Shown: piece after piece, positions 1-16,100 of the stretch | Numbering within the stretch: position 1 is the first letter of the stretch | Layout of the letters: every line of letters begins with the position of its first letter | NCBI GenBank assembly: GCA_019429125.1 | Contig: JAHYJO010000019.1 | Span: 1-19,267 of the forward strand | Length of the DNA stretch: 19,267 bases | Source of the DNA: Nanobdellati archaeon | GTDB taxonomy: Archaea > EX4484-52 > GLR71 | Direction of reading: 5' to 3' | The notes under the pieces: model-generated | Database searches by the model: none | What the model saw: only the letters and a program-made list of their open reading frames with translations | What the model was told of the DNA's origin: nothing | Position numbers and translations under genes: made by a program

Positions 1-184
1 AAACCTGGCACTCACTCGCCCCCCCTGCGCCCTCAATCTTCACACCACCAATATCAACAAGGTCAGACCCCGAGCGCGTAATAAGTATCAACATAATCGC
101 CAGCACAACAAGTAACACGACAAGCACGACAATAGTATTAATAGGCAATTCCATACCCTTGCGCTTCTTAGAAAAAATATCCAT
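1..184 (-). CDS. Type IV pilin-like protein with class III signal peptide (partial, runs off the left edge; not in ORF track)
   Basis: Hand translation from ATG at 184-182: MDIFSKKRKG|MELPINTIVVLVVLLVVLAIMLILITRSGSDLVDIGGVKIEGAGGASECQV. Basic leader, KG cleavage site and ~20-aa hydrophobic helix; open to position 1. Confidence 0.85.
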   Translation of the reverse strand, partial: MDIFSKKRKGMELPINTIVVLVVLLVVLAIMLILITRSGSDLVDIGGVKIEGAGGASECQV

Positions 185-1785: not shown

Positions 1786-1800
1786 AAATAACTATATATC
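1786..1800 (+). promoter_or_regulatory. Putative TATA promoter for the subtilase/pilin operon (divergent from proS)
   Basis: AAATAACTATATATC, with TATATAT at 1793-1799 about 25 nt before the ATG at 1824. Confidence 0.45.
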
Positions 1801-1823: not shown

Positions 1824-4800
1824 ATGCGACATTTACCCATACTGATTATATTTGCACTAATCTTATCAGTCCCATTTATATCTGAAATCTCTGCAACCAC
1901 AACACAAACCGAGAACACAGACACAATTGTCTCACAGCAAGACGATAAAGTCAAAGTGATAATAACATTTAAGGATAAGCCCAAGACTACAAAAGAAAAC
2001 ATATTCAATGCTTTTGGTATCGCACAAAAAGACCCAAAAGACAAAATAAAAGAAAAAATAACTAACAACGGTCATCTAAAAAACGAGTTCCAGACAACAG
2101 ACAGTGTTTCAGCAACGATAACTCAAGGATTGCTTGACGAATTAAAGACTGACCCATCAATTGCATACATTGAAGAAGACCGACCCGTCCATGCATTTCT
2201 TGATCAGAGCGTACCGCTTATTAATGCAGATGACGCCTGGCAACAACAGATGCAAGATTCAGGCCTAACTGGAAAAGGTACGACTGTATGTATAATAGAT
2301 ACAGGCATTGACTATACACATCAAGATCTTGGAAACTGCAGTCTGTGGAACCTCACAGGAAATGTAGAATCATATTCCGAAGAATCACTGCACCCCTATA
2401 CTGACAATACGACAGTTGAATGGACAATAAACCGTACCGGTTTTACAAATATAGCAGTTCATTTTTCATATATTGGTCTTGAATTAGATTTTGATTATAT
2501 TCAGATATTATATGAGAATGACACGCTTATAGAGCAATATTCAGTAATATCTAATGATATCTGGTCTCCTTCAGTATCTGGTGATACAATAAAGGTGCGC
2601 CTTATAGCTGATCCTTATGAAAATAATTCTGGTTTTGTGATTGATAAAATACTTAATGGTACTGCAACATATAACAACTGGAACAATTGTCCTAAAGTGA
2701 TAGGTGGCTGGAATTTTGTAGGTAATCATACTAATCCTATAGATGATATGGGTCATGGGACTCATGTTGCAGGAATTGTTGCAGGTTCTGGTGCGATAAC
2801 TGGTGTTGCACCCGATGCAAATCTAGTTGCAGTAAAAGTACTTGATAAAGACGGCAGTGGTTATAATAGTGATGTAATTGCGGGTGTTGATTGGTGTGTT
2901 TCAAATAGTGATGAATACAATATATCTGTAATCAGCATGAGTCTTGGGGAACTCGAGGTATATTATAATTCTTATTGTGACGGTGATTATCCATCAATAT
3001 CAAATGCAATAAATGCTGCCGTTGAAAAAAACATATCTGTTGTAATTGCAAGTGGAAATGATAATCCTCCAGGTATCAGTTCTCCTGCCTGTATTGAAAA
3101 CGCAACTAGAGTTGGTTCAACATCAAAAACAGATAACATTATGTCCTATACTCAAAGAAGTGTTAATTTCCCAGACATGCTCCTTGCGCCTGGTAATGCT
3201 ATATATTCATCAGTGCCTCATTCAAGTTTATGTACTGGTAATCCTAGCAAAGAATTATGCGATAATTCTTTATATCTCTCTTTAGGTGGCACATCAATGG
3301 CAACACCGCACGTATCAGGTGCCACAGCAATATTAGTTCAGGCATATAAAGACCGTTTAGGCACAAGACCGACTCCAGATTACATTGATACTGTTTTAAA
3401 CCTCACAGGGATTCCAATCTTTGACAGCCAAACAGGCTTGAACTTCTCGCGCATAGACGTCCTTGCAGCAATATTATTCATAAACACTCCCCCTAACATA
3501 ATAGACACCTACAATAACATAACTGGCAACAATTCACAAATCCTAACTGTCAATGAAACAGACTCAATCTTATTCAACCTGACAGTCTCATCACCAGTCA
3601 ATTACACCTGGAAACTAAACGGTACAGAAGTTGGTGCAAACCAGCCCAACTGGACCTTCAATACCACATACAACGACTCAGGATTCTGGACAATTGATGT
3701 CACAGTCGAAAATGATAATGGCACAAGACACACTGGGTGGAATATGACAATCAATAATCTCAACCGTCCTCCAATAATCACAACAATATCAAACGTATCA
3801 ATGGATATCCAAAATCAGATAACTCTAAACCTCTCAGCAAACATCTCCGACCCAGACAACGACACATTAACAATAACAACTAACGACCCCGAAAACATAA
3901 CGGTTGAAAATCACACATTGATATTCCATTACACCCAAACCATAACAGACAAGCAGATAATAATAACTGTCAACGACTCAGATTTAACCGCAACACAGAT
4001 AATCTACATAAACATCACAGATTTCTTAATCAACATCACAGACACCTACAACAACATAACAGGTGACAACAGTTCAACTCTCACAATAAATGAGACAGAT
4101 TCCGTATTTTTTAACATATCAACAGATGTCCCTGTGAACTATACCTGGTATTTAAACAGCACAGAAACCGGAACAAATTCAAAAAATTATACCTTATTTA
4201 CCAGTTTTGATGACGCCGGGATAACGAACATTTCAGTCAATGTCTCAAACAATTACACTTTCAACATCTTCACATGGACTGTTGAAATATTGAACAAAAA
4301 CCGTCCTCCTACAATCACAACAATTTCAAACATCTCTATGGATATCCAGAACCAGACAATAATCAACATATCAGCAAACATCTCAGACCCAGACAACGAC
4401 ATTTTAACAATAACAACTGACGACCCGGAAAACATAACAATTATAAACCATACATTAATCTTCAATTACACAGAGACCATAACCAATAAACAGATAACAA
4501 TAACTGTCAACGACTCGGACCTAACAACCAATTTTACAGTATACATAAATATAACAGATACAACCTCACCTAAAATAACAATAGATTCACCCACAAACAA
4601 GACCTACAACACGACCCAAATCAACATCTCAATTCATGCAGATGAATATTTGGACTGGTGCGCATACTCCCTAAACGCCCAACCAAACATAACAGTCAAC
4701 TGCACAGGAACACAGAACTTTACAGCCACTGAAAACCTCAACAACCTGACAGTCTGGGCAAATGACACAGATGGTAACATAAATTATACAGATGTTTTTT

Positions 4801-5879
4801 TCACAGTTGACACAATCTTCCCTAACATAACAATAACCGCATTAAATTACACGACTGACGATTACCTTTACATAAACCTAACAGTTTCAGAAACGCCAGA
4901 CACCTGCATCTTAAATTGGCAGGATGAAAACATCACGATGAATAAAACAGGAACTACCTGCGACATCAACAAGACATCACTATCTCCTGGAACCTACAAT
5001 TACATAATATATGTCAATGACACAATAGGTAACTTAAATTCAACCATAAACCTCCAAACAGAAATCTATTACTGTTTTGAATCCGTCACAGACTGGTCAT
5101 CCTGCATTTCAAGTTCAAGAACAAGAACGCACACAAATAGAGACTGCACAACTTATACTGCATCTGAAATTTGTTATTCGGGTAGTGGTGGTGGCGGTTC
5201 ATTTTCATACACTCCACCAATTATAAATGAGATAAATACAACCTTTGACAACATCACCTTAAATGCGACAGAAAATGTGACAGAAACATTAAATATTACA
5301 TCTATAAATATCACAGAGCAAGCATCAAATGAAACCCTGAATAATACCGAGATAAATGGTACTCAAACAGACGATAACGCAGGTGATACTTTTAATGGTT
5401 CTGACAAACGTGGACCTTCTAAAATCACAACACAAAATATAGAATCAAAAAACCTTGAAGACCTAAATGATGATTTCCTAAGTCTGACCTTATTTGATAA
5501 TCTCATTTCAGAAGACGGGTTAATCTCAAAAATAAAGGATAAATTAAATATTAAAACAGATAATAGCTCTAACAATTTGACACTATTTATTTTGATTATT
5601 GTAATTATAATTGTTGTGATTACAATATGTGGACTGTACCTAAATTTTAGCAAAAAACAACATATAGTGCAAAAAAACACACAACAAGTAATATCTGTTA
5701 TCTCAAAAGATAACTCAAATATAAATGACTCTCTAACGGTCATAAATCCCTACTCTCAAGAAATTAGATCTGACCTCTCCCAAACAACTTATTTAAACAA
5801 CATAGACCCAAATAATAATACTGATAGCCCTAAGGATGGATATTCACATGATATCAAATACAAAGAATCGAAAAGGTAA
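1824..5879 (+). CDS. Membrane-anchored S8 subtilisin-like serine protease: signal peptide, I9-type propeptide, CUB-like insert, Ig-like stalk, C-terminal TM helix
   Basis: Catalytic triad IIDTGID (~2292), HGTHVAGI (~2754), GTSMATPHVSG (~3288); oxyanion region ASGN; propeptide ending YIEEDRPVHAFL; N/T-rich beta repeats; TM helix LTLFILIIVIIIVVITICGLYL followed by SKK. Confidence 0.93.
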   Translation: MRHLPILIIFALILSVPFISEISATTTQTENTDTIVSQQDDKVKVIITFKDKPKTTKENIFNAFGIAQKDPKDKIKEKITNNGHLKNEFQTTDSVSATITQGLLDELKTDPSIAYIEEDRPVHAFLDQSVPLINADDAWQQQMQDSGLTGKGTTVCIIDTGIDYTHQDLGNCSLWNLTGNVESYSEESLHPYTDNTTVEWTINRTGFTNIAVHFSYIGLELDFDYIQILYENDTLIEQYSVISNDIWSPSVSGDTIKVRLIADPYENNSGFVIDKILNGTATYNNWNNCPKVIGGWNFVGNHTNPIDDMGHGTHVAGIVAGSGAITGVAPDANLVAVKVLDKDGSGYNSDVIAGVDWCVSNSDEYNISVISMSLGELEVYYNSYCDGDYPSISNAINAAVEKNISVVIASGNDNPPGISSPACIENATRVGSTSKTDNIMSYTQRSVNFPDMLLAPGNAIYSSVPHSSLCTGNPSKELCDNSLYLSLGGTSMATPHVSGATAILVQAYKDRLGTRPTPDYIDTVLNLTGIPIFDSQTGLNFSRIDVLAAILFINTPPNIIDTYNNITGNNSQILTVNETDSILFNLTVSSPVNYTWKLNGTEVGANQPNWTFNTTYNDSGFWTIDVTVENDNGTRHTGWNMTINNLNRPPIITTISNVSMDIQNQITLNLSANISDPDNDTLTITTNDPENITVENHTLIFHYTQTITDKQIIITVNDSDLTATQIIYINITDFLINITDTYNNITGDNSSTLTINETDSVFFNISTDVPVNYTWYLNSTETGTNSKNYTLFTSFDDAGITNISVNVSNNYTFNIFTWTVEILNKNRPPTITTISNISMDIQNQTIINISANISDPDNDILTITTDDPENITIINHTLIFNYTETITNKQITITVNDSDLTTNFTVYINITDTTSPKITIDSPTNKTYNTTQINISIHADEYLDWCAYSLNAQPNITVNCTGTQNFTATENLNNLTVWANDTDGNINYTDVFFTVDTIFPNITITALNYTTDDYLYINLTVSETPDTCILNWQDENITMNKTGTTCDINKTSLSPGTYNYIIYVNDTIGNLNSTINLQTEIYYCFESVTDWSSCISSSRTRTHTNRDCTTYTASEICYSGSGGGGSFSYTPPIINEINTTFDNITLNATENVTETLNITSINITEQASNETLNNTEINGTQTDDNAGDTFNGSDKRGPSKITTQNIESKNLEDLNDDFLSLTLFDNLISEDGLISKIKDKLNIKTDNSSNNLTLFILIIVIIIVVITICGLYLNFSKKQHIVQKNTQQVISVISKDNSNINDSLTVINPYSQEIRSDLSQTTYLNNIDPNNNTDSPKDGYSHDIKYKESKR
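3495..4568 (+). repeat. Intragenic tandem duplication, 2 x 537 bp (179 aa), in the subtilase stalk
   Basis: Constant 537-nt offset at four anchors: GACACCTAC 3504/4041, AACCGTCCT 3762/4299, GACCCAGACAACGAC 3849/4386, TACATAAA 4005/4542. Confidence 0.92.
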
Positions 5880-6840
5880 TTCCATAACTATCATACTTAT
5901 ACTTGTCATAGCTTTAGTTGTTGCTGCTATGCTTATCTCTTTCATATCTGGTCCTGCCAAAAAACTGAACTTTTTTACGACTGAAAAAAATGAAGAGAAC
6001 CTTGACACATTAGATGTGGGGACACTTGCATTAATGGATCCCAATCTTGTCAATTTCGACACAGACAAAGCAAAGACTAAAATGATAAAATTTATAACTA
6101 TTACAAGTGGTAATACTTCAATTATTAATTGTAGTGCAACGACAACTTCTGTTCAGAAAAACTACTGCACAAACATAACTGTTGCAATTTCACCTGCCCC
6201 CCCAAGATACTCAACAACCCCTGAAGGCATAACTTTCAAGATTTCTTACATTAATAAAACCTTATTTGAAGATATTGAAGGCTATGTCAACCTGACTTTC
6301 ATAGATACCTATGAATTTGACCAGGTATTTACCTCCAGATTAGGTGATTTCAAAAATTGCACAAATCCAATAACTGAATCATGTTTCAATGAATCCACCA
6401 CAAAACCTATGACTGACCTGAACTTATTTTCTATGTTCAATGACGAGATATCAGTCCGAATGCCTTTCTATTATGATAATCTTGTATCTGACGGTTTCAT
6501 ATACGAAGATGCCTGCACAGCTTACGCAAATTATTCAAACCTAACTGCACAGGATACAAAGATAAAGGTTACAGTTGATAAAGAAAGTCCTACAGGTCCA
6601 TATAATTTTACAATTGTCCACATGGAAAAATCACATAAACGAGAATATCCAATCTATTGTAATGTCTCAATAAACAAAGGCAGTTCTAGGGTTTTTCCCG
6701 TCCAGATAGTTGCCGGTACCTATGATCTCTTTAGAGTTTATGGCTGGAAATCAACAAATCCAAATTGCATTATGGTAGAAGATGATATTCTTGTGAAAAA
6801 AGGTGAGATAACACCTGTGAATATAAAATTTAGATGTTAA
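5848..6840 (+). CDS. Type IV pilin-like (minor pilin) protein with class III signal peptide
   Basis: MISNTKNRKG|NSITIILILVIALVVAAMLISFISG. Start is ATG 5848 or 5836; either overlaps the subtilase 3' end. Beta-rich, Cys- and sequon-containing ectodomain. Confidence 0.72.
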   Translation: MISNTKNRKGNSITIILILVIALVVAAMLISFISGPAKKLNFFTTEKNEENLDTLDVGTLALMDPNLVNFDTDKAKTKMIKFITITSGNTSIINCSATTTSVQKNYCTNITVAISPAPPRYSTTPEGITFKISYINKTLFEDIEGYVNLTFIDTYEFDQVFTSRLGDFKNCTNPITESCFNESTTKPMTDLNLFSMFNDEISVRMPFYYDNLVSDGFIYEDACTAYANYSNLTAQDTKIKVTVDKESPTGPYNFTIVHMEKSHKREYPIYCNVSINKGSSRVFPVQIVAGTYDLFRVYGWKSTNPNCIMVEDDILVKKGEITPVNIKFRC

Positions 6841-6890
6841 AACAAGACATAAATAAAAACACACATAAAATTATGATAAGGTAAATTATT

Positions 6891-7157
6891 ATGCGACGGA
6901 TAGGCAGACTTGACATGGCAATAGCAGTGACTGTAATCCTTGCCATAGTGCTGATTGCAATTATTGGTATGGCTGTATTTGATGTTTTTGACAGTGGCGA
7001 GAATGAGGCTGACGGCATGTTTGATGCTCTCAAATGTCAGCCAAAGATTGCTCAGGCCTGTATGGATGGAAAGATTTCAGAAACTACTGATATAAATGAA
7101 GTTGACGGAAAATGTATAACTAATGCAAACAAGGCCACAATCTGTGACAATATATAA
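6891..7157 (+). CDS. Small pilin-like protein with atypical class III site
   Basis: MRRIG|RLDMAIAVTVILAIVLIAIIGMAVF, then a short acidic head with 4 Cys. Confidence 0.62.
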   Translation: MRRIGRLDMAIAVTVILAIVLIAIIGMAVFDVFDSGENEADGMFDALKCQPKIAQACMDGKISETTDINEVDGKCITNANKATICDNI

Positions 7158-7167
7158 GGTTTTTAAA

Positions 7168-7479
7168 ATGGTAAAAAACAATATCAAAAAAGGTCAAATG
7201 TCTATGGGTACAGTAGTTGCCTTAGTGATCGCATTAATAGTAATCTTAGTAATTGTGGCGATAACAACCGATTTGGGTGAAAAAACAAAAGATACAGCAC
7301 CTTTCGATAACGCAAAAGCAAAAGCTGAAGATGCTATGCATGACAAGAAATGTGCAATGGTATGTACTGCATTCTGCATTGACAAAGCATATGTGATAGA
7401 TAGTGATTGTCAGGGATATGTAAGTGACTGTTGTGATTGTGATAGCGTACAAGATATAACTGACGGGTGTGCTTCTTGA
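7168..7479 (+). CDS. Small type IV pilin with class III signal peptide and Cys-rich head
   Basis: Start reassigned from 7123 to ATG 7168: MVKNNIKKG|QMSMGTVVALVIALIVILVIVAI. Canonical archaeal KG|Q site; 8 Cys in the C-terminal part. Confidence 0.85.
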   Translation: MVKNNIKKGQMSMGTVVALVIALIVILVIVAITTDLGEKTKDTAPFDNAKAKAEDAMHDKKCAMVCTAFCIDKAYVIDSDCQGYVSDCCDCDSVQDITDGCAS

Positions 7480-7523
7480 TAACTAATCTGATATTTTCAA
7501 TATTTTCAAGCATGAAACTATTA

Positions 7524-7727
7524 ATGTACACAAAAAGACGCAAGGGTGAAGTTGACGCCTTGATGATTGCTCTTGCAAGTGTGTTGATTTTAGCAATTTT
7601 AGCCCTAGTTTTTGTCATGGTTGTAGGGACATCCCTTGACGGTACAGTCGAAATGATCTGTAAATATAAAGCTGACGCTGTAGGTAAAGGTGGTGAAACA
7701 ATAGCAAAACTATTAGGAGTCTGTTAA
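7524..7727 (+). CDS. Very small type IV pilin-like protein
   Basis: Start reassigned from 7467 to ATG 7524 (or 7512): MYTKRRKG|EVDALMIALASVLILAILALVFVMVVG; 2 Cys. Confidence 0.78.
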   Translation: MYTKRRKGEVDALMIALASVLILAILALVFVMVVGTSLDGTVEMICKYKADAVGKGGETIAKLLGVC

Positions 7728-7729
7728 TT

Positions 7730-9034
7730 ATGAATATGCCTGAAACAGTAATGATGATGGCTTTCGGAGTATTGATCGCTGGTTTTCTCATATTTACAAT
7801 GGCACAAACGATAAATGTAGGTGTTGAGGTCAAGATGAGCACCCGTGTTGAACACATGGCAGATGACCTTGCAAACGCAATTCAGCATATGTCCTCCTCA
7901 ACAATAGACTATGCAACAGAAGTATATGATGTCGGTATCTGGGGCACATCAATAAATATTGTGGACGATGATATTGCTGGTGATCATTATGTCACTGTAA
8001 AGCACAAGGATTTTGAATATTCGCAATCATTCCATATTGCAAAAGACATAACTGTTAAAGGGAACATATATAATGCAAAAATATTATGTCTTGAAAAATC
8101 ATTTGATAAAAATAACAAGAAAATGATAAAGGTTACTAATTTTGACGATTCTCCGTGCAACACTGCCTACAAGGAACTAGATTTAAGATACAATTTTGAT
8201 TGGGGTTTTGATAATACGAAGACAATCCAGGGTAAACTGAACAGTGTTCCTGACAGAGTTGATTTAGTGACTGAATTACCTATTGGAAAGATAAAATCTG
8301 CATCATTTCATAATTTCAATTTAAGTTCTGGCGATACTGACAAATATTTTTGGATACGACCGGGCGAAAAATCCAAATATTTTGTAAAGTTTGATCTGTA
8401 CATACCACATGCCCCTATCTCTTCAACACAGAACAATTCTGTAAACATAACTATTGATGTATCTCCATTGAATCCATTATATATCGATATTGCTTATAGA
8501 AATATGGCAAAGTATCCTGATTGTGATGCTGTATCAAGAGATTACAGTTGCATTATCCGTGGTGAGCATGATATAACTCTAATCTATCGGAATGGCTGGA
8601 GACCCAACATAACTATAATAAACACACAAGCAACCAAGGATTTTTATGACTGGGGTTTTATAGATACAAAATCATTTTATAATGAAACATTGACAGTCTA
8701 CCCCAATGCAACAGTACAGATGGTACAGTTTCATAACTTCATAACACCTGAAAACGAATATGTAAACATAACTCCTGTTGATATGGGTCGTAATTATTTC
8801 AGTTTCAATGTACGAGTTCCAGATGATGACAATGCCGTAACACATAACAATGTCTCCATAATATTAGATATTGACCCGTTCTATTCACAAAATGTAAACA
8901 TAAAAAATGGTGCAAAAACAATACCTGAATGTTACAGTGGCGAAAAACCGTGTTTTATAAGGATAGGGTCAAGTGTAATCCTTAATCTTGAACCAGAAGA
9001 TTACGCATTTATAATTGAGGATCCAAAATATTAA
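7730..9034 (+). CDS. Pilin-like membrane-anchored protein lacking a basic leader, with two diverged C-terminal repeats
   Basis: AGGAG at 7715-7719. N-terminus MNMPETVMMMAFGVLIAGFLIF, then an amphipathic helix (MADDLANAIQHM); repeated DWGF / FHNF / PxC...CxIR motifs. Confidence 0.65.
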   Translation: MNMPETVMMMAFGVLIAGFLIFTMAQTINVGVEVKMSTRVEHMADDLANAIQHMSSSTIDYATEVYDVGIWGTSINIVDDDIAGDHYVTVKHKDFEYSQSFHIAKDITVKGNIYNAKILCLEKSFDKNNKKMIKVTNFDDSPCNTAYKELDLRYNFDWGFDNTKTIQGKLNSVPDRVDLVTELPIGKIKSASFHNFNLSSGDTDKYFWIRPGEKSKYFVKFDLYIPHAPISSTQNNSVNITIDVSPLNPLYIDIAYRNMAKYPDCDAVSRDYSCIIRGEHDITLIYRNGWRPNITIINTQATKDFYDWGFIDTKSFYNETLTVYPNATVQMVQFHNFITPENEYVNITPVDMGRNYFSFNVRVPDDDNAVTHNNVSIILDIDPFYSQNVNIKNGAKTIPECYSGEKPCFIRIGSSVILNLEPEDYAFIIEDPKY

Positions 9035-9035
9035 C

Positions 9036-9043
9036 GAGGTGAT
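9036..9043 (+). promoter_or_regulatory. Archaeal Shine-Dalgarno site
   Basis: GAGGTGAT ending 8 nt before ATG 9052. Confidence 0.7.
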
Positions 9044-9051
9044 AAACTATT

Positions 9052-9615
9052 ATGTTCAAAATATCATCAATTTCAAAAAAGAAAAAGAAAGGTTCTCTTT
9101 TATTGCCTGTATTCTTCCAAAAGATAATGATGATAGGTCTTGTTGTAGGTGTCATAATGTGGATGATTTATTCCAGCATTAATTCCGAAGAAGTATCAGT
9201 CATAATGCGCCAGGAACGAAACGATGTAGAACTATGGCATCAGGTATTAAGATCTGATATATTTAGGGCTGAATCTGAGAGTACTGCAATCAACACAAAA
9301 ACAGATTACCAAATGTATTTTGATTCTACTAAATTAACATCTGCACGCAGCAGTACTGGTGGTAGTTCGTCAGGGTTACCGGGGGATATATCTTGTAATA
9401 TTCCATTAAATTTATCTAACTGTATTAATTTTTATCCAAACAAATATTATCTAAAGATAAATGATGGAACCACTACTTGGCTTTTCACAAATAATGCAAC
9501 TTTATCATCTACATTTGATAACTATAAGTACAAAGAAGTAATAGGTGTAATAACCTCCCCTAATCCGAATCCTGTTATGGGCACAATATACTTTAAGACA
9601 GAATTATACGAATGA
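9052..9615 (+). CDS. Minor pilin-like protein with class III signal peptide
   Basis: MFKISSISKKKKKG|SLLLPVFFQKIMMIGLVVGVIMWMIY; strong SD site; ATGA overlap with the next gene. Confidence 0.72.
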   Translation: MFKISSISKKKKKGSLLLPVFFQKIMMIGLVVGVIMWMIYSSINSEEVSVIMRQERNDVELWHQVLRSDIFRAESESTAINTKTDYQMYFDSTKLTSARSSTGGSSSGLPGDISCNIPLNLSNCINFYPNKYYLKINDGTTTWLFTNNATLSSTFDNYKYKEVIGVITSPNPNPVMGTIYFKTELYE

Positions 9616-10370
9616 TTATTATGGGTTTTAAATATAACAAACATATACATAACAGGATTTCCAAAAGGAAAGGTTTTGTACAGCATTGGTTCGTACTGAT
9701 AATGTCTTTCATGTTAGTTATAGCAATAATACTATTAGTCAGTATTTTTAATATAAATATAACTTCAAGCGTTGTGACGGGCAATCTTAACATGCAATAT
9801 TCAACCGATTCCGGAAGGGAAATCTATGCACTCCTTTCGGCAGGATGTCCTGCTGTAAATGAACCTTATAATGATTACAATGTTGCAGATCTCATAAGTG
9901 TGTATGTCAGCGGAGACCTTACTGTTAAAGAATCAATAGATACAGATCTTAGAAGTTGCATAGCTTCATCTCTTACAAAAATTGCAGAAGTCAATGAAGG
10001 AAAAGATAAAACAGGCATAATACCTCATTATATGTACTTTTATGTGACTTATGGGGGTCAGAACTATTTAGAAGAGCGACGCCCAGGCATAACCTATGAT
10101 AAGAAGGTAAATATATTAATACCTTTTAATGTAAATTTTGTTTTAACCACAACTGGTATGGATTATAAAATTGATACTCTTAGAACCGTTCCAACATCCT
10201 TACCTGTCAATCCAAGTTATTTTTCAAGCACGATGAATGACAGATATTCAATACAAATTCCATTATTTGATTCCGGTAACATGCAGTACAGTTCAGCAAC
10301 CGCAGTTTTAGAAGAATGGAGTGACGAGTCCTGGACAACTTTAACACAAGCACAGCAGGAGGGGTTATGA
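9612..10370 (+). CDS. Minor pilin-like protein with class III signal peptide
   Basis: ...NRISKRKG|FVQHWFVLIMSFMLVIAIILLVSIF; ATGA overlaps at both ends (alternative start 9621). Confidence 0.72.
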   Translation: MIIMGFKYNKHIHNRISKRKGFVQHWFVLIMSFMLVIAIILLVSIFNINITSSVVTGNLNMQYSTDSGREIYALLSAGCPAVNEPYNDYNVADLISVYVSGDLTVKESIDTDLRSCIASSLTKIAEVNEGKDKTGIIPHYMYFYVTYGGQNYLEERRPGITYDKKVNILIPFNVNFVLTTTGMDYKIDTLRTVPTSLPVNPSYFSSTMNDRYSIQIPLFDSGNMQYSSATAVLEEWSDESWTTLTQAQQEGL

Positions 10371-13300
10371 TTATGGCGTACAATAAAAAAATAAAAGGAG
10401 TTTCTGGAATAGAACTACTTATCCCTATTTTTTTAATGATGTTCTCATTGATTGTAATCTTTGCAGGTGTTGAATGGGGTGTTAATACTTTGGTATTAAT
10501 GGATAATGAAAAGAAAGTCACCCAGATGGATACTGAGCTTTTAAGCGTCACAGATTTGTACATCACACCTTCATTAAAATACGCAATGCAGGAAGTTACA
10601 AGAGACCTTGCACTCCACGGGGGTCTGTCATCTGAAATATTAAAAAATTATAAATTATTTATTGAAGCTGGTACCTCTACATCACCATTTGAAACACAAA
10701 TAGAAAATGATTTCAACCACGGCAATCTTGATTTTCCATCAATAACCAATCCTCCTATGAAAATTGAAGGAGACATTCTTTACTGGTCTTACGTGCTTGG
10801 TGAAAACAACAATAAAAAAACAATACCTTATACTTTTGACCTTATAAGTTCAACAACACCCTATAAGTTATATGGTACTCGTAGTCTCCAATGGTCTCCT
10901 CCTTTTACCTATTTAATAACAGATGTTGATGGAACTGTAAACAAATATGATGTAGTGGGTACAAATTATATCCTTTCTGGACAGTACACAGGTCCTGCAG
11001 TCATTTCCGGAGATACTCTGATAAAGCTTAATATGTCTGGGGGCACTGGTTCAGCAAACGTTGAAGGCGTATATAATATTAGTTCTTATTTTGAACCATT
11101 GTTTCCGAGAATATCATATCCTGATGACGCACTTGCACAAAGGACAATATTCCCACGATTTACAGATATTATGTTAAGCGACAGATTAAACAGTTACAGG
11201 TCCGATTATGGTGATTCAAAGACTGATATAGGGTCTACATTATCTCTTGGTACTTGGAATGCATTTTTTGTGCCTGTCCTTATGGAATTAGATAAGACTG
11301 TTGCGTTTTATGGTGGTAATCGTATTGTTGAAACAACATCTTCAATTGAGATGCAAAATACTGATCCCGTAAAATCCGAATTAGACAATAGATATTGGAA
11401 ATTATTTGATCTTGCAAATTTATTTATGGGTACTATCACAGATAATGATTTCTTAGATGATACATTGACAATGAACGCACATTATTCTGAGAGTTATGTA
11501 GGTCATGAAATATTTAGAGATAAAAGTTCAAAGACTTGCAGTGATGAATGGGGTATTTCTTGTGATGGGATCACAGAGAATACGGTAGCAACTCCATCAT
11601 GTACTCCTTCACCGTCAAGCACAACTGAATTATATATCAAAGAATTGACAATTGATTCGCATGAATATGAATTAAGTGAAATAATAAATGTGAAACTTTT
11701 TGTTGATTGTATTTATAATGAATACTTCAATTGGACAATAGCTTATTATGATGGAGGTATTGATTGGGGTTATAATAAAACGGGTACAACAAAATGTCCA
11801 TCTTTTGCAGGAGGTAGTATAACTATCTCTGAACAATTGGCTATGGAATCTACATATAGTGGTATTCATTTAATAAGGGCAAGTGTAGGAAATGACTCTA
11901 CAGATATCTTAGGAAGTACTTGCATGTCTGCAGACAATGATGATGTTACTTTTACATATTTAGGTGTCGCTGGAAGTTATATGTATGCAGATGATTATGT
12001 AAACGATACCTGTTTTGATGGCGATAAAAATTGTATTTTCCAAAAAACATGTAATGATAAATATCAAGGAACTCCTCCTCAACTGAGACCTAAAAATCCG
12101 TCAGACAAATTCACGACCTTGACTGCAAAAGATGGTAGCTATGAAAGTGTACCAATTATTTTTGATGTAGAAGATAATTTCAACAATAATTATCATCAAA
12201 AATTTGTGAATATGGGTCTTGTTCCATTCATCTATGAAAATATGACAAAAGAAGAGCTTGCAAAAAACATTTCTGTTGCTGATGAAGTCTCTCTTACTTT
12301 CAATTATGGTTCAGATACAACAATTGCTTGCAGTGAAAGGGAAGATATCATAGAAAAAGTAACTGTATTTATGCTTTATAATCCTACTTTATTACCTAGT
12401 ATAACTGTTGAGACTTTCGTAATGACTCCACAAAAACTCACTGAAGACACCTCTAGAATTGAGATAGGTTCAATAAACCCCGAATTAGGTGCTACAGACA
12501 GTTCTGACTTTTACAAAAAACAGAAAATACCTTTGAATAAAGCTTTGATTGCAGAAGTGATAAATAAGACTGGCACTGCTGAGTTTACAATTCGGGTAGA
12601 TACCGTAGCAAATGGTGAAAACATACCGGCACAGATGTATCCTGAAATAAATTCGAGAATCTATGCATATGATGTTCTTACGAAAGGTGCATACCCATCA
12701 AGAACAATTGACATAAATCCAACTTATATAACAAATAGTCTTGAACCTTCTATGAATTATGGTTTCAAAAATGCAAAAGGTATAGCGACAGACAGCTATG
12801 GGAACATATATGTCATAAATTCAGATGACCACAGGTTGTATAGATACAACCGTTTCGGAACCTTCAATGGCTGGATGGACCTTCCAGACCTTGATCCTCG
12901 AGGTGTGGATATTGACACAAGAAATGGAAACATCTACATAAGTTATTATATTGGAAAAAACATAACACGGTACGACAATTTCTTTGACTCGCGCAATCTT
13001 GCCCAAAATCCAGGAATCCCCCCTAAACCCTTCCAGAAGTGTAGTCGTTTTGCAAGTGCATATCCTACAGATGTGGCATTCTATAAAGGTACAGTCTTCA
13101 CAATTTTTGAAGATAATAAATTGGATTACTGTAAAACCTCAAGTGACAGTTGGCTTATTATAAATACATTGCCAGATGTTGCAGGAACTGATAAAATTAT
13201 GGCCATTTCTGTAGATCAAGCAGAAGACCGTCTTTATGCCAAAGTAAATAAACCTACAGGATTTGTAGATGTAAATGGCAATCCAACATATTATCGTTAT

Positions 13301-14698
13301 TACTATGTCTATGACCTTAGTGTTTTTGTAAACACTCTAAATCCGACAAGCATAACTCGTATAATTGACGAGACAATACCTATAAATTTCAGTCTGACAT
13401 ACTTTGATATATACACCCCTCAAAAAGGCGGTGATACTCAGGCATATTTCACTTACATGACAAAATCAAAAAAAGATACGTATGCGCTTCTTGACGATTT
13501 CAGGTTCAACATAGATTTCGGCGACACTTTTAAGATTGAAGTTGAATCGATGGAAAACATAAAAGGCCTAACAGACAGAATAGAATATTATGATGATGGT
13601 TGCGGTTCTGTTACCAAAAAAGATAATTGTGAGACTTTATGGGGTACATATGCTTTAAATGAATATTTCAAAGAAATATCTTATTTTAATAAAAGTACTG
13701 ATGTAGATTGTACTGAACTTAATCAAGGTCTTGGTCCTGTTGATAATGAAACTATAAGTAAGATAAAAACAATACTTAACATCCCACAAGATGATACTAT
13801 TCTATGTACAAAAACGATTGATTCTGCAAATATACCGATTTTATTCATAGGAGATTATATGGAATTAAAGATAAAAGACAAGATAATAGGTCCAAGAATA
13901 ATCAATGAAGTCAGAAGATTAAATGATGTCTACAATTCAGAAGGTATATATATTGATGTTGATTATACTATTAATTCAGATTTTGGTACCGGTTGGGATG
14001 ATGATGGATTCTGGAAAGAAAAAGATAAATATGTAGATACTCGAGTAACTAGTACAATCTGTACTTGTGAAACTACTTCTTCAGCATCATGTGGGTCTTA
14101 TACGGGGCGTGCAAGTGATTTTTATGAAAAAACAGAGTCTTATTGTGAATATTCTTATGGTGCTATCTATTCTATGAATGTCACAATTGAAGATAAAAAC
14201 ACAAACATTTGGGATCCTATCTTACATGATATGACATCATTGAAATTTAAATATGGTTTTGAATGGTCTGTTCTTGATAATATTATAAGTCATATTTATA
14301 TTGCCGATGAACGAGGTGGTCAAAGGTATTGTGGTATCACACCTGAAGGGTGTCATAAACAAGATACTTTTGTAAATTATGATGATGCAGAAGATGACCC
14401 TGATGATTGTGATGCAAACATTGGTGCTGACGTAACCTATGTTGGAAAAACTTGTATAACAGATACTCATGGCACTTGTTGGACTGGGGGGTATCATGAT
14501 TGTAATTATTATAGTTGTAATTGTGGTACTTCTGGTGACCCTCCATCTTACTCCTGTGATACTTGTCATGAGCATTGTAAAACTTATACTTGTTCTGCTT
14601 GTGGATATAATTATAATTGTAATTATTATTCCGATTCATGTGGTGGTTTGTATACTCCCTCTAGCACTATAAGAACAACAAAATGTAGTGGGGATTAA
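10367..14698 (+). CDS. Giant (1443 aa) pilin-like putative adhesin with NHL/beta-propeller-like repeats and Cys-rich C-terminus
   Basis: MAYNKKIKG|VSGIELLIPIFLMMFSLIVIFAGV (Glu at +5). GGAGG at 10358-10362 favours start 10373. NHL-like FKNAKGIATDSYGNIYV and PRGVDIDTRNGNIYIS; 16 Cys in the last 122 aa; no second TM helix evident. Confidence 0.75.
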   Translation: MIMAYNKKIKGVSGIELLIPIFLMMFSLIVIFAGVEWGVNTLVLMDNEKKVTQMDTELLSVTDLYITPSLKYAMQEVTRDLALHGGLSSEILKNYKLFIEAGTSTSPFETQIENDFNHGNLDFPSITNPPMKIEGDILYWSYVLGENNNKKTIPYTFDLISSTTPYKLYGTRSLQWSPPFTYLITDVDGTVNKYDVVGTNYILSGQYTGPAVISGDTLIKLNMSGGTGSANVEGVYNISSYFEPLFPRISYPDDALAQRTIFPRFTDIMLSDRLNSYRSDYGDSKTDIGSTLSLGTWNAFFVPVLMELDKTVAFYGGNRIVETTSSIEMQNTDPVKSELDNRYWKLFDLANLFMGTITDNDFLDDTLTMNAHYSESYVGHEIFRDKSSKTCSDEWGISCDGITENTVATPSCTPSPSSTTELYIKELTIDSHEYELSEIINVKLFVDCIYNEYFNWTIAYYDGGIDWGYNKTGTTKCPSFAGGSITISEQLAMESTYSGIHLIRASVGNDSTDILGSTCMSADNDDVTFTYLGVAGSYMYADDYVNDTCFDGDKNCIFQKTCNDKYQGTPPQLRPKNPSDKFTTLTAKDGSYESVPIIFDVEDNFNNNYHQKFVNMGLVPFIYENMTKEELAKNISVADEVSLTFNYGSDTTIACSEREDIIEKVTVFMLYNPTLLPSITVETFVMTPQKLTEDTSRIEIGSINPELGATDSSDFYKKQKIPLNKALIAEVINKTGTAEFTIRVDTVANGENIPAQMYPEINSRIYAYDVLTKGAYPSRTIDINPTYITNSLEPSMNYGFKNAKGIATDSYGNIYVINSDDHRLYRYNRFGTFNGWMDLPDLDPRGVDIDTRNGNIYISYYIGKNITRYDNFFDSRNLAQNPGIPPKPFQKCSRFASAYPTDVAFYKGTVFTIFEDNKLDYCKTSSDSWLIINTLPDVAGTDKIMAISVDQAEDRLYAKVNKPTGFVDVNGNPTYYRYYYVYDLSVFVNTLNPTSITRIIDETIPINFSLTYFDIYTPQKGGDTQAYFTYMTKSKKDTYALLDDFRFNIDFGDTFKIEVESMENIKGLTDRIEYYDDGCGSVTKKDNCETLWGTYALNEYFKEISYFNKSTDVDCTELNQGLGPVDNETISKIKTILNIPQDDTILCTKTIDSANIPILFIGDYMELKIKDKIIGPRIINEVRRLNDVYNSEGIYIDVDYTINSDFGTGWDDDGFWKEKDKYVDTRVTSTICTCETTSSASCGSYTGRASDFYEKTESYCEYSYGAIYSMNVTIEDKNTNIWDPILHDMTSLKFKYGFEWSVLDNIISHIYIADERGGQRYCGITPEGCHKQDTFVNYDDAEDDPDDCDANIGADVTYVGKTCITDTHGTCWTGGYHDCNYYSCNCGTSGDPPSYSCDTCHEHCKTYTCSACGYNYNCNYYSDSCGGLYTPSSTIRTTKCSGD

Positions 14699-15068
14699 AT
14701 CCCTTTCAATCGTAATATTATTAACTTTTGTACTTGTCTAGCAAAAAAATAATAGGCATGCTATGACCATTATGATGTAACTTAAATACATTATACTTTT
14801 TATAAAATCAATAGCTACAGCTTGAAAATGTGTAGTTAATTTTTGTTAAAAAATATTTACTCCTTTTTTGTAAAATCGATAGCATGCAAGTAACGTAGAA
14901 AATTATAACTTAAAAATATTTCAACAAATAATGACCCTATCAAAAAAATCGTAAGCAAGTAAGACAAAATTTAGCTAAACAAGTACTAACTTTTTAATTT
15001 TTATTGAACTTTTCCATTATTAAAACTTTGGCGAAATGTTTTAGGGATACGACGAGACCCCACCCCAA

Positions 15069-15084
15069 CCGAAACCTATATATA
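15069..15084 (+). promoter_or_regulatory. BRE/TATA promoter of the stand-alone pilin gene
   Basis: CCGAAACC-TATATATA, TATA box at 15077-15084, about 33 nt before ATG 15118. Confidence 0.6.
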
Positions 15085-15117
15085 CCACCAAACCTAAAAT
15101 ATAAAATAGTGATAATT

Positions 15118-15417
15118 ATGATATCAAAAAAATCCCGAAAAGGTATGGGTATGGCACTGACTCTTGTAGTCACAGCTGTTGTCCTTATAGTCATAAGCCT
15201 TGTAATAATTACAATGGTGACTGGTGGTCTTTCAAAGTTTGGTGCATCAAACAATCAACAGATGAATGATTCAAGTGCCGCAACAAGTGATGCTATTGCA
15301 GTAGCATATTGTAATGCACAAAACGATGTAAGTGGAGATGCATGCTGTAAATCTAAATATGCTGGTAAGGATTGTACTGATATTATAACTTGTGGAATTA
15401 CTTGCCCAACTCCATGA
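15118..15417 (+). CDS. Type IV pilin, candidate major pilin
   Basis: Start reassigned from 15004 (TTG) to ATG 15118: MISKKSRKG|MGMALTLVVTAVVLIVISLVIITMVTGGLSKFG; 6-Cys head; own promoter and oligo-T terminator. Confidence 0.85.
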   Translation: MISKKSRKGMGMALTLVVTAVVLIVISLVIITMVTGGLSKFGASNNQQMNDSSAATSDAIAVAYCNAQNDVSGDACCKSKYAGKDCTDIITCGITCPTP

Positions 15418-15476: not shown

Positions 15477-16100
15477 ATGTCTAAACCTAAAACCACTTAT
15501 CCCTTAAAAGTCCAATCATTCTACAACTCAATCTCACATTTATATCCCTTGATCTCATTCGTAGACAATAAAGCCAAAAACCGAGGAATCTCATTCTCAG
15601 AACCAAAACAAGGCAATAAAGTCCTATGTATCGGTTTCGGTCTGGGCGAAGAGATAAAAAAATACAATAGTTTCGGTTGCACGACTTACGGCCTTGAATT
15701 TTCAGGCAGTATGATAAAGTCTGCAAAAAAAAGAAACACTCTAAAAAACCTCGCAAAAGGCAACACATTCTCTCTGCCCTACAAAGACAAGTCTTTTGAC
15801 ATCATATACAGCGCATACATGATAGACATTTTCGAAAACGCACAAATAATAGAAATCTTAAAAGAGATGAGACGTGCATTGAAACCTAAAGGAAAAATAA
15901 TTTCAGTAAATAACACATTTGATAAAGGACTCCTCTCAAGAATCCTCATAACCTACTATTTATTCGTAAAAGACAACATATTTACAAGGATGAAGACTCG
16001 ACCAATAATAGCAGAAGACCTTTTCAGAAAAGCAGGATTAAGAGAAATAAAACAAAAGAAAGTATTCTGGGCTTCAGAAGCTGTAATAGGTATTAAATAA
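15477..16100 (+). CDS. Class I SAM-dependent methyltransferase (UbiE/Methyltransf_11-like), substrate unknown
   Basis: Motif I VLCIGFGLG, post-I GLEFSGSMI, motif II LPYKDKSFDIIYS, motif III EMRRALKPKGKI. Confidence 0.85.
   Translation: MSKPKTTYPLKVQSFYNSISHLYPLISFVDNKAKNRGISFSEPKQGNKVLCIGFGLGEEIKKYNSFGCTTYGLEFSGSMIKSAKKRNTLKNLAKGNTFSLPYKDKSFDIIYSAYMIDIFENAQIIEILKEMRRALKPKGKIISVNNTFDKGLLSRILITYYLFVKDNIFTRMKTRPIIAEDLFRKAGLREIKQKKVFWASEAVIGIK

What the first reader, a model, noticed from the sequence alone, without database searches (positions are those of the whole stretch)
1824..15417. Candidate host-attachment system: surface subtilase in the same gene run as nine pilin-like genes, including a giant adhesin-pilin
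Seen: the ORFs from 5848 to 15417 look unrelated, yet each starts with a hydrophobic helix. Seven have a basic leader ending in KG (RKG|N, KKG|Q, RKG|E, KKG|S, RKG|F, IKG|V, RKG|M), one has RIG|R and one has no leader. Spacing from 1824 to 14698 is tight or overlapping, and the first pilin overlaps the protease gene. Known: [KR]G plus a hydrophobic helix is the class III signal cut by PibD/FlaK/EppA-type peptidases, and many DPANN archaea are ectosymbionts with type IV filaments. Inferred: a filament with a multi-subunit tip plus a stalked protease that either nicks the host S-layer or matures the adhesin. I know of no characterised locus with this composition, but cannot confirm novelty without a search.
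Basis: partly seen in the sequence, partly recalled or inferred. Interest (0 to 1): 0.85.

Follow-up and report, generated by a model that had tools for sequence, protein, structure and literature searches.

The report
Pilin-like gene array beside surface protease
A small symbiont-type archaeon carries a run of nine or ten fast-evolving genes that look like subunits and adhesins of a type IV pilus, but the surface protease gene next to them is a recent neighbour, not a fixed part of the system.

Summary
After a 1351-aa S8 subtilase (1824-5879) come nine + strand genes (5848-15417). Each has one N-terminal hydrophobic helix. Eight carry a basic leader ending in Gly directly before the helix. 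A tenth such gene sits at the contig edge (2-184, - strand).

The Gly is kept in all 35 orthologue N-termini I read. The motif occurs in 8 of 11 N-terminally hydrophobic ORFs here, against 25 of 274 elsewhere in the genome.

The 1.16-Mb genome has relatives titled Nanohaloarchaea. On other contigs it encodes A24 prepilin peptidases and several ATPase/platform loci. It holds six class-III-like clusters in all.

Best reading: a machinery-less array of type IV pilin-like proteins. It has small Cys-rich subunits, with p9 the likely major one, and large modular ones. These include a 1441-aa protein with an NHL-type beta-propeller.

The protease is not supported as part of a system. One same-genus genome, 92% complete, keeps the whole array next to ProRS but has no S8 there or elsewhere. 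In 12 loci from six other genera, S8 relatives have no pilin array beside them.

All globular parts are orphan, genus-restricted families. Host attachment is inferred, not shown.

The parts
2..184 (-). p0: tenth pilin-like gene, cut by the contig end (MDIFSKKRKG|MELPINTIVVLVV...)
   Evidence: An 88% identical orthologue is present in G029. It has weak N-terminal similarity to p9 and p1 and to a gene of the C17 cluster.
1824..5879 (+). S8 subtilase of 1351 aa. It has an N-terminal signal peptide, an I9-like propeptide, a catalytic domain with an insert of about 120 aa, PKD/Big_9-type repeats (a 143-aa tandem repeat at 64% identity), a C-terminal TM helix at 1247-1265 and a tail of about 86 aa.
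   Evidence: Pfam Peptidase_S8 scores 160 bits, and PKD is over its cut-off. The stretches that hold the subtilase Asp, His and Ser motifs (as I recall them) align to 3afg. There are 85 NxS/T sequons, and the TM helix is found. It is the only S8 in the genome.
5848..6840 (+). p1: 330-aa pilin-like protein (RKG|NSITIILILV...). It overlaps the S8 stop by 32 nt and is the fastest-evolving member (35% identity to G025).
   Evidence: No Pfam or NCBIfam family.
6891..7157 (+). p2: 88-aa small Cys-containing pilin-like protein (RIG|RLDMAIAV...). Orthologues read RIG, RQG and RKG.
7168..7479 (+). p3: 103-aa small pilin-like protein with 8 Cys (KKG|QMSMGTVVALV...)
7524..7727 (+). p4: 67-aa pilin-like protein (RKG|EVDALMIALASV...). 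The first 30 residues after the Gly are 80% identical to G025, against 38% for the rest.
   Evidence: The start codon is uncertain: orthologues lack an ATG at this place.
7730..9034 (+). p5: 434-aa protein with an N-terminal hydrophobic helix but no [KR]G leader in any of 5 orthologues
   Evidence: Its profile finds only 3 clear representative clusters plus one marginal hit among 1.84 billion.
9052..9615 (+). p6: 187-aa pilin-like protein (KKG|SLLLPVFFQKIMMIGL...). The first 30 residues after the Gly are 77% identical to G025, against 48% for the rest.
9621..10370 (+). p7: 249-aa pilin-like protein (RKG|FVQHWFVLIMSF...). The model has a 34-residue helix straight after the Gly, then an alpha/beta domain.
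   Evidence: The fold search gives only noise-level Cache/PAS-like matches.
10373..14698 (+). p8: 1441-aa modular pilin-like protein (IKG|VSGIELLIPIF..., Glu at +5). It has beta-rich domains, an NHL-type beta-propeller at about 800-980, a Cys-rich C-terminus and 36 Cys.
   Evidence: Weak Pfam NHL/SBBP hits. PF01436 is recorded on 2 of its 6 relatives.
15118..15417 (+). p9: 99-aa small pilin-like protein with 6 Cys (RKG|MGMALTLVVTAVVLIVISLVII...). It lies 419 nt after p8, with a CTATATATA box 34-42 nt upstream, and is the candidate major subunit.
   Evidence: The first 30 residues after the Gly are 90% identical to G025, against 44% for the rest.

Best explanation
The window is a whole 19-kb contig of a 1.16-Mb DPANN-type archaeon. 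Genes p1-p9, plus p0 at the contig edge, are a machinery-less array of type IV pilin-like proteins.

Proposed mechanism, inferred:
- Each precursor inserts by its N-terminal helix.
- One of the genome's A24 prepilin peptidases cuts after the conserved Gly.
- One of the ATPase/platform machines encoded on other contigs adds the mature protein to a filament or short pseudopilus.

Proposed roles, inferred:
- The small Cys-rich proteins (p2, p3, p4, p9) are structural subunits.
- p9 is the likely major one. It has its own upstream region and a nearly invariant first 30 residues.
- The large ones (p1, p5, p6, p7 and the 1441-aa p8 with an NHL-type beta-propeller) are minor or modular pilins. They would sit at the tip or on the surface and carry binding modules.
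- Their fast divergence and restriction to one genus fit contact with a partner cell or substrate.

The S8 subtilase is a separate protein. It is Sec-exported, anchored by a C-terminal helix and probably heavily N-glycosylated. In one subclade of the genus it has come to lie directly upstream, possibly co-transcribed. The array does not require it.
For: Shown:
- Leader, Gly and helix are present in 8 of 9 genes, and the Gly is kept in 35 of 35 N-termini read.
- The motif is enriched: 8 of 11 here against 25 of 274 elsewhere.
- The genome encodes Peptidase_A24 at C15 (over the cut-off) and at C25 (below it).
- Six T2SSE matches are over the cut-off, on C14, C32, C16, C25, C7 and C22.
- Seven T2SSF matches are over the cut-off, in pairs beside the ATPases of C32, C16 and C25.
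- The same genome has five further clusters of such genes. Two flank ATPase and platform genes (C32, C16). Three are machinery-less like this one (C17, C26, C27).
- The array p1-p9 keeps its order in G029, G024 and G025, and in the fragments of G027, G030 and G026.
- In 4 of 9 families the 30 residues after the Gly are far better conserved than the rest: p9 90 vs 44%, p4 80 vs 38%, p6 77 vs 48%, p8 70 vs 44%. This is expected for a helix that packs in a filament core.
- p8 has Glu at +5, seen in 4 of the 5 N-termini read.
- An NHL propeller in p8 is indicated by weak Pfam hits, by PF01436 recorded on 2 relatives and by top Foldseek rows.

Against an obligate protease role:
- G025 has the array but no S8.
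- In 12 S8 loci of six other genera there is no array beside the gene.
- A24 peptidases are available for leader cleavage.
Against: - No Pfam or NCBIfam pilin model matches any of p1-p9. However, only 1 of 10 other class-III-like proteins of this genome matched one either, so these models are insensitive here.
- There is no ATPase, platform or peptidase gene on this contig.
- The structure models are poor: p8 mean pLDDT 44.7 and p7 60.5. No pilin appeared among the fold matches of p7.
- In 5 of 9 families the N-terminal 30 residues are no better conserved than the rest.
- p5 has no Gly leader at all.
- As I recall the strict motif of Szabo 2007, several +1 to +4 residues (N, S, D, G, Q) would not fit it. 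This was not tested with FlaFind.
- Nothing shows expression, cleavage or a filament.
- S8 and p1 overlap in the 2 genomes where I read both ends, G000 and G029. Co-transcription there stays possible.
Confidence: 0.55

Rival explanations
1. One reading: the subtilase and the pilins form one host-attachment and penetration system. The stalked protease either nicks the host S-layer where the pilus binds or matures the adhesin.
For: S8 overlaps p1 by 32 nt in the window and by about 23 nt in G029. It lies directly upstream of p1 in G024. ProRS-S8 is also seen in G028. S8 is the only subtilase in the genome. It is surface-anchored with Ig-like stalk repeats. Passages of PMC11291902 report gaps in both S-layers at nanohaloarchaeal contact sites.
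Against: G025 keeps the whole array next to ProRS without S8, and has no S8 over the cut-off anywhere at 92% completeness. S8 relatives in 12 loci of six other genera have neither an array nor ProRS beside them, though several of those contigs are short. In the close pair G000/G029, S8 is 65% identical and the array members 74-86%. A24 peptidases explain leader removal. Possible TATA-like stretches lie inside the S8 3' end before p1 (read by eye).
Confidence: 0.12
2. Surface display rather than a pilus. The class III signal serves to hand large functional proteins to a short bindosome-like or pseudopilus base, so that they stand on the cell surface without forming a long filament.
For: Passages of PMC13705601 describe thousands of archaeal binding proteins with class III signals encoded away from T4F loci, and T4F genes scattered in DPANN genomes. 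Five of the nine proteins here are large (187-1441 aa). The contig has no machinery gene.
Against: No substrate-binding or transporter family was found in any member, and no ABC transporter gene lies on the contig. Four small subunits of 67-103 aa, with p9 nearly invariant at the N-terminus, fit filament-forming pilins better.
Confidence: 0.18
3. Ordinary uncleaved signal-anchored membrane proteins. The basic residues before the helix are simply the positive-inside rule, and the array is a set of unrelated surface proteins.
For: No pilin family model matches. p5 lacks the Gly leader. Five of nine N-terminal helices are not specially conserved. The fold evidence is inconclusive.
Against: The Gly directly before the helix is kept in 35 of 35 N-termini. 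It is rare among other N-terminally hydrophobic ORFs outside such clusters. The same motif marks the genes next to ATPase and platform genes on C32 and C16, one of which matches Arch_flagellin/Pilin_N.
Confidence: 0.1

Closest known systems
Minor-pilin sets with a tip adhesin in bacterial type IV pili and type II secretion (GspH-I-J-K; FimU-PilVWX with PilY1)
   Same: Several different pilin-like genes lie in one tight run, next to a very large protein with a beta-propeller. They would prime or cap a filament. The comparison rests on passages of PMC8179133 and PMC13705601, and on my own recall for the gene names.
   Different: No sequence or family match was found. Here the big protein itself carries the pilin-type N-terminus, whereas PilY1 is not a pilin (PMC8179133 passage). 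The propeller is NHL-like. The machinery is encoded elsewhere, and the organism is an archaeon.
Modular type IV pilins (Streptococcus sanguinis PilB and PilC; ETEC CofB)
   Same: A small N-terminal pilin module has bulky functional modules grafted behind it, proposed to sit at the tip and bind ligands (PMC8179133 passages).
   Different: p8 is 1441 aa. The largest protein named in that bacterial survey has 860 residues. Its modules are orphan except for the NHL-type propeller. Neither the pilin module nor binding is shown.
Archaeal type IV filament systems, especially system 1 (Epd-like), and the scattered T4F genes of DPANN
   Same: Class III leaders are present. Gln at +1 occurs in p3 and in many genes of the other clusters. 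An ATPase with two platform genes is seen on C32, C16 and C25. Large adhesin-like proteins occur in T4F loci, and components are scattered in Nanobdellati (PMC13705601 passages).
   Different: None of p1-p9 matches Pilin_N, Class_IIIsignal or Arch_flagellin. The array stands alone on its contig. The families are confined to one genus.
The two conserved type IV pilus loci of cluster 2 DPANN, with coiled-coil proteins (Hamm et al. 2024)
   Same: The same group of organisms, and the same proposed role in contact with a host (PMC11291902 section 8).
   Different: Those loci hold CpaF, TadC and coiled-coil proteins. This one has none of them.
Membrane- or surface-bound archaeal subtilases (Tk-SP of Thermococcus kodakarensis as the nearest solved structure)
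   Same: An S8 catalytic domain whose stretches holding the Asp, His and Ser motifs (as I recall them for subtilases) align to 3afg at E 1.9e-37.
   Different: The protein is 1351 aa, with an insert of about 120 aa between the Asp and His, PKD/Big_9 repeats, 85 N-glycosylation sequons and a C-terminal membrane anchor.

Membership tests
Type IV pilin-like proteins (class III signal peptide) | Short, mostly basic leader ending in Gly (or Ala), followed at once by about 20 hydrophobic residues | tested here: met
   Present in 8 of 9 genes (p5 lacks it), plus p0. The Gly is kept in 35 of 35 N-termini read.
Type IV pilin-like proteins (class III signal peptide) | Cleavage after the Gly by an A24-family prepilin peptidase | not testable with these tools
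   Only the presence of the enzyme genes could be checked: C15 at 31.4 bits, over the cut-off, and C25 at 24.2 bits, below it.
Type IV pilin-like proteins (class III signal peptide) | Long N-terminal alpha-1 helix packed on an antiparallel beta-sheet | tested here: inconclusive
   The p7 model has helix 19-52 and then an alpha/beta domain, at pLDDT 60.5. The p8 model has helix 16-45 at pLDDT 44.7. Best VIA Z is 7.6, to Cache/PAS-type sensor domains, which is at the tool's stated noise level. Foldseek gives nothing at E<=0.001.
Pfam/NCBIfam archaeal pilin families (Pilin_N PF07790, Class_IIIsignal PF04021, Arch_flagellin PF01917) | Match to the family model over its cut-off | tested here: not met
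   0 of 9 match, even at E<=0.1 (Pfam) or E<=1 (NCBIfam). In a control, only 1 of 10 other class-III-like proteins of the same genome matched.
Type IV filament locus (ATPase, platform, peptidase and pilins together) | Core machinery genes in the same locus | tested here: not met
   No T2SSE, T2SSF or A24 match lies on contig C4. They lie on C14, C32, C16, C25, C7, C22 and C15.
Subtilase family S8 | S8 catalytic domain over the cut-off, with the Asp-His-Ser triad | tested here: met
   Peptidase_S8 scores 160.3 bits against a cut-off of 21.8. The stretches IIDTGID, HGTHVAG and GTSMATPHV align to 3afg; that they hold the triad is my recall of the subtilase motifs.
PilY1-like tip adhesins | Sequence or profile relation to PilY1 or arCOG03511 | not tested
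   No PilY1 family appeared in Pfam or NCBIfam. arCOG profiles are not on hand. Only the presence of a beta-propeller is shared.
NHL-repeat beta-propellers (module of p8) | NHL repeats over the Pfam cut-off, or a confident six-bladed model | tested here: inconclusive
   PF01436 scores 17.3 bits against a cut-off of 20. PF01436 is recorded on 2 of 6 close relatives. Top Foldseek rows are NHL propellers at E about 1e-7, but with TM 0.3-0.4 and rmsd about 10 A, on a model of pLDDT 56-77 in that part.
Class III-signal substrate-binding proteins (bindosome type) | Substrate-binding protein domain, and usually an ABC transporter nearby | tested here: not met
   No such domain occurs in p1-p9, and there is no transporter gene on the contig.
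SPEARE proteins of Nanohaloarchaeota | Giant protein combining serine protease, adhesion and restriction endonuclease domains. This definition is recalled; PMC9563170 passages only say large multi-domain genes. | tested here: not met
   The S8 protein has 1351 aa, with protease and Ig-like repeats but no nuclease family.

The most novel reading that the evidence does not exclude
In the subclade that holds this genome, the sole subtilase of the cell has been recruited into one transcription unit with a genus-specific pilus tip complex. Its 1441-aa propeller-bearing subunit would be larger than any modular pilin named in the one survey I read. Together they would form an attach-and-cut device for opening a host cell envelope. 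That would be a composition not described in the papers I searched.
Probability: 0.12. Interest if true: 0.7.

Novelty: new member of a known kind. Interest (0 to 1): 0.35.

Why it matters
Pilin genes of DPANN archaea are mostly unannotated. A study of a nanohaloarchaeal order states that no pilins were annotated in its genomes (PMC9563170 passage). A 2026 survey finds T4F parts scattered in these genomes (PMC13705601).

This genome shows where such genes can hide. It has six clusters of class-III-like genes invisible to Pfam. Four of them lie away from any machinery, and each has small subunits plus very large ones.

The array studied here is fast-evolving and confined to one genus, as expected for cell-contact proteins. 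p8 and p9 are therefore concrete candidates for host-recognition studies.

The negative result also matters. The striking protease-pilin neighbourhood is recent and dispensable, so it should not be read as a conserved system.

Tried and rejected
- **RNA evidence:** no RNA holder was listed for window:4800-10800.
- **Complex prediction:** the soluble parts of p5, p7 and p6 gave no verdict.
- **ESM Atlas:** nothing usable for p8. For p5 there were only leads below 0.9, one from a cluster in which 30% of members carry Class_IIIsignal.
- **PDB sequence search:** the p9 profile found no pilin. Its best hit is a designed coiled coil on the hydrophobic helix.
- **Bacterial promoter and terminator scan:** no excess over shuffles, and it does not suit archaea. 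The TATA-like boxes I mention were read by eye and were not tested.
- **RNA genes:** no Rfam family and no tRNA in the window.
- **Apparent stop in the G029 S8 gene:** the in-frame TAG reported is only a stop three codons earlier than in the window, so the gene is intact.
- **Paralogy between the six clusters:** BLAST found only weak N-terminal matches. Profile comparison between clusters was not done.
- **Direction of change:** I did not determine whether S8 was gained beside the array or lost from G025.
- **Prediction programs:** FlaFind, PilFind and SignalP are not on hand. My own scan is a crude stand-in.
- **Supplements:** S10 Fig and S4/S5 Tables of PMC13705601, and Tables S6/S7 of PMC9563170, may list genes like these.

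Full report
**What is in the window.** The window is the whole of contig C4 of genome G000. That genome has 1,158,795 bases in 32 contigs, is 93.5% complete and has about 34% G+C.

The genes are:
- an archaeal-type prolyl-tRNA synthetase (252-1727, - strand);
- an S8 subtilase (1824-5879);
- nine + strand ORFs from 5848 to 15417;
- a methyltransferase (15477-16100);
- iPGM (16093-17619, - strand);
- a thymidine/AMP-phosphorylase-type gene (17619-19115, - strand).

Related records are titled 'Candidatus Nanohaloarchaea archaeon' in 3 of 5 cases and 'archaeon' in 1. One close homologue of p8 is labelled Aenigmarchaeota by its source. The 'phylum' held for this genome is the same 42 genomes as its 'order'. 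The cytoplasmic proteins of the window are not acidic, with pI 7.9-9.9.

Every one of the nine proteins has a single hydrophobic stretch, at the N-terminus.

S8 and p1 overlap by 32 nt. The next gaps are 50, 10, 44, 2, 17, 5 and 2 nt, and there are 419 nt before p9 (coordinates).

The globular parts are unrelated to each other. BLASTP all-against-all gives only weak matches over the leader and helix, plus one 25-residue match at E 0.55.

A tenth gene of the same kind, cut by the contig end, lies at 2-184 on the - strand.

**It is more than chance.**
- In my own scan, 8 of 11 N-terminally hydrophobic ORFs on this contig have [KR]G just before the helix. Elsewhere in the genome the figure is 25 of 274 (Fisher p 1.8e-6). 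The genes are not independent, and most of the 25 sit in five other clusters.
- The Gly is kept in all 35 N-termini of the eight families that I could read in G000, G029, G024, G025, G027, G030 and G026. p2's odd RIG is RQG and RKG in relatives.
- p5 never has such a leader.

**Genome context.**
- Peptidase_A24 matches lie on C15 (over the cut-off) and C25 (below it).
- Six T2SSE ATPase matches over the cut-off lie on C14, C32, C16, C25, C7 and C22.
- Seven T2SSF platform matches over the cut-off lie, as pairs, beside the ATPases of C32, C16 and C25. A 2026 survey describes this layout for archaeal 'system 1' and reports it in some DPANN (passages).
- None of these genes is on C4.
- The genome has six clusters of class-III-like genes. 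C32 and C16 flank machinery. C4, C17, C26 and C27 do not.
- Each machinery-less cluster mixes small proteins with large ones of 400-1441 aa.
- Pfam recognises only 1 of 10 tested members of the other clusters (Arch_flagellin/Pilin_N). The lack of any Pfam or NCBIfam hit for p1-p9 is therefore weak evidence against a pilin nature.

**Conservation of the array.**
- p8 is found in 6 of 7 other genomes of the genus. Outside the genus there are only weak C-terminal hits, in 3 genomes of one other genus.
- The p5 profile finds 5 of 7 genus genomes and one weak hit elsewhere.
- The p5 profile finds only 3 clusters, plus one marginal hit, among 1.84 billion representatives.
- p8 has 6 close relatives and one marginal hit among 5.8 billion clusters.
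- p9 has 12 relatives, all at 64% identity or more.
- Gene order p1 to p8 is kept in G029, G024 and G025 and in the fragments of G027 and G030. p9, MT and iPGM follow in G025 and G030; the G026 fragment shows only p8 and p9.
- Against G025 the array members are 35-64% identical, where ProRS is 83% and iPGM 74%. These are fast-evolving genes.

**The protease is not a fixed partner.**
- In G025 the order is iPGM, MT, p9, two extra genes, p8 to p1, then 184 bp, then ProRS. There is no S8.
- G025 is 92% complete. It has no S8 over Pfam's cut-off anywhere, only a 19-bit match in a 76-aa frame.
- S8-p1 adjacency is seen in G000, G029 and G024. G028 shows ProRS-S8 at a contig end.
- For G026, G027 and G030 the boundary is not assembled.
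- By my reading of the rows, matches covering the catalytic region occur in 26 of the 41 other genomes. The gene is therefore old in the group.
- In 12 loci from 12 genomes of six other genera, no run of class-III-like genes and no ProRS lies beside S8. My scan flagged two single ORFs there (L039 3341-3565 and L041 13578-14036). Neither is next to S8. Several of these contigs are short (3.6-7 kb), which limits the test.
- S8 is intact in G029.

**The subtilase itself.**
- It has a signal peptide and a weak I9 propeptide match.
- The stretches IIDTGID, HGTHVAG and GTSMATPHV, which I recall as the subtilase Asp, His and Ser motifs, align to the solved Thermococcus protease 3afg.
- An insert of about 120 residues lies between the Asp and His.
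- It carries PKD and Big_9-type repeats, including a 143-residue tandem repeat at 64% identity.
- It has 85 NxS/T sequons and a C-terminal transmembrane helix at 1247-1265 with a tail of about 86 residues.
- It is the only S8 in the genome.
- This describes a cell-anchored, probably heavily glycosylated surface protease.

**What the array members look like.**
- p2, p3, p4 and p9 are 67-103 aa. p2, p3 and p9 have Cys-rich C-terminal parts.
- p9 stands apart. It lies 419 nt after p8, and in G025 and G026 it is separated from p8 by two more genes.
- p9 has a CTATATATA box 34-42 nt before its ATG. This resembles the ACTATATAT box 25-33 nt before the S8 ATG (read by eye).
- The first 30 residues of p9 after the Gly are 90% identical to G025, against 44% for the rest. 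The same pattern holds for p4, p6 and p8, but not for p1, p2, p3, p5 and p7.
- The p8 model is poor overall (pLDDT 44.7). It shows a helix at 16-45, beta-rich domains, and a propeller-like part at about 800-980 with pLDDT 56-77.
- The best Foldseek rows for p8 are NHL propellers, with E about 1e-7, TM 0.3-0.4 and rmsd about 10 A. This agrees with the weak Pfam NHL hit and with PF01436 on two relatives.
- The p7 model (pLDDT 60.5) has a 34-residue helix straight after the Gly and an alpha/beta domain. Its best matches are Cache/PAS-type sensor domains at Z 7.6. The tool states this is the usual best score for models without a true match. The pilin fold is therefore neither shown nor excluded.

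**How it most likely works.** Shown: the motif, its conservation, the enzyme and machinery genes elsewhere in the genome, the synteny, and the lack of conserved linkage to S8. Everything below is inferred.
- The precursors are cut after the Gly by an A24 peptidase.
- They are assembled by one of the machines on other contigs.
- p9 forms the filament body, perhaps with p2-p4.
- The large proteins form a tip or surface complex, with p8's propeller as a binding module. Modular pilins and the minor-pilin/PilY1 complexes of bacteria work this way (PMC8179133 passages).
- Host attachment is plausible for this kind of organism. PMC11291902 section 8 proposes type IV pili for nanohaloarchaeal contact. 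Nothing here shows it.

**Comparison with what is known.**
- Stand-alone pilin genes, scattered T4F parts in DPANN and large adhesin-like proteins in archaeal T4F loci are all described (PMC13705601 passages).
- Modular pilins are widespread in bacteria.
- The text of PMC13705601 contains neither 'protease' nor 'subtilisin'.
- A search for archaea + class III signal peptide + subtilisin gave 2 papers (listing only). By title and abstract, neither is about such a locus.
- The protease-pilin composition is thus not in the print I searched. My data say it is a recent neighbourhood, not a conserved system.
- The array is best filed as new, orphan members of a known kind.
- The 1441-aa size of p8 exceeds the 860-residue extreme named in the bacterial survey. 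That survey counted only proteins with one InterPro signature.

**Verdict.** Interest is moderate. The finding is a useful pointer to unannotated pilin and adhesin genes in a DPANN lineage, with p8 and p9 as candidates to test. It is not a new kind of system on present evidence.

Noticed in passing
window 2-184 (- strand): A tenth class-III-like gene (MDIFSKKRKG|MELPINT...) is cut by the contig end. G029 has an 88% identical 88-aa orthologue about 1.8 kb beyond ProRS. The array may continue past the contig.
   Followed up: partly
G000 contigs C17 55-62 kb, C26 31-38 kb, C27 12-15 kb, C16 134-143 kb, C32 27.5-29.1 kb (L065-L069): Five more clusters of class-III-like genes lie in the same 1.16-Mb genome. 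Two are next to an ATPase and paired platform genes. Three have no machinery. Only 1 of 10 tested members is recognised by Pfam.
   Followed up: partly
L030 (G025:C90) 16347-20000: In G025 a second pilin-like cluster lies directly on the other side of ProRS. By eye, its N-termini resemble those of the C17 cluster of G000. The ProRS neighbourhood looks like a hot spot for such genes in this genus.
   Followed up: partly
L030 2804-5517 (- strand); also L034 (G026) between p8 and p9: G025, and by spacing G026, carry two extra genes between p8 and p9. One is a 571-aa DsbD_2 (thiol-disulfide membrane protein) + FmdE-domain protein. The other is a 333-aa FmdE-domain protein. G000 has no tblastn match to either at E<=1e-3. 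A link to the many cysteines of the pilin-like proteins is conceivable.
   Followed up: partly
L069 (G000:C27 6209-11981), next to the C27 pilin-like cluster: A very large surface protein lies directly upstream of another pilin-like array. It appears as frames of 1394 and 590 aa, interrupted by an assembly gap of N, with Ig-like repeats similar to those of the S8 stalk. The pattern 'big surface protein followed by pilin-like genes' thus recurs.
   Followed up: no
window 252-1727, 16093-19115: The cytoplasmic proteins are not acidic: ProRS and iPGM have pI 7.9 and the phosphorylase 9.05. This does not fit a salt-in halophile, although relatives are titled Nanohaloarchaea.
   Followed up: no
L055 (G029:C21 955-2259): G029 holds a second, partial copy of p3-p4-p5 at 80-90% identity on a short contig. 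This is probably strain mixture in that assembly, which has 4% contamination.
   Followed up: no
window 1791-1799 and 15076-15084: The same box, (A/C)CTATATAT, lies about 25-42 nt before the ATG of S8 and of p9. It is a possible archaeal TATA element with very short leaders. It was read by eye only.
   Followed up: no
G000:C15 about 39-42 kb: An open frame of 4266 aa has Ig-like repeats like those of the S8 stalk. It is a giant surface protein of the kind discussed for nanohaloarchaea.
   Followed up: no
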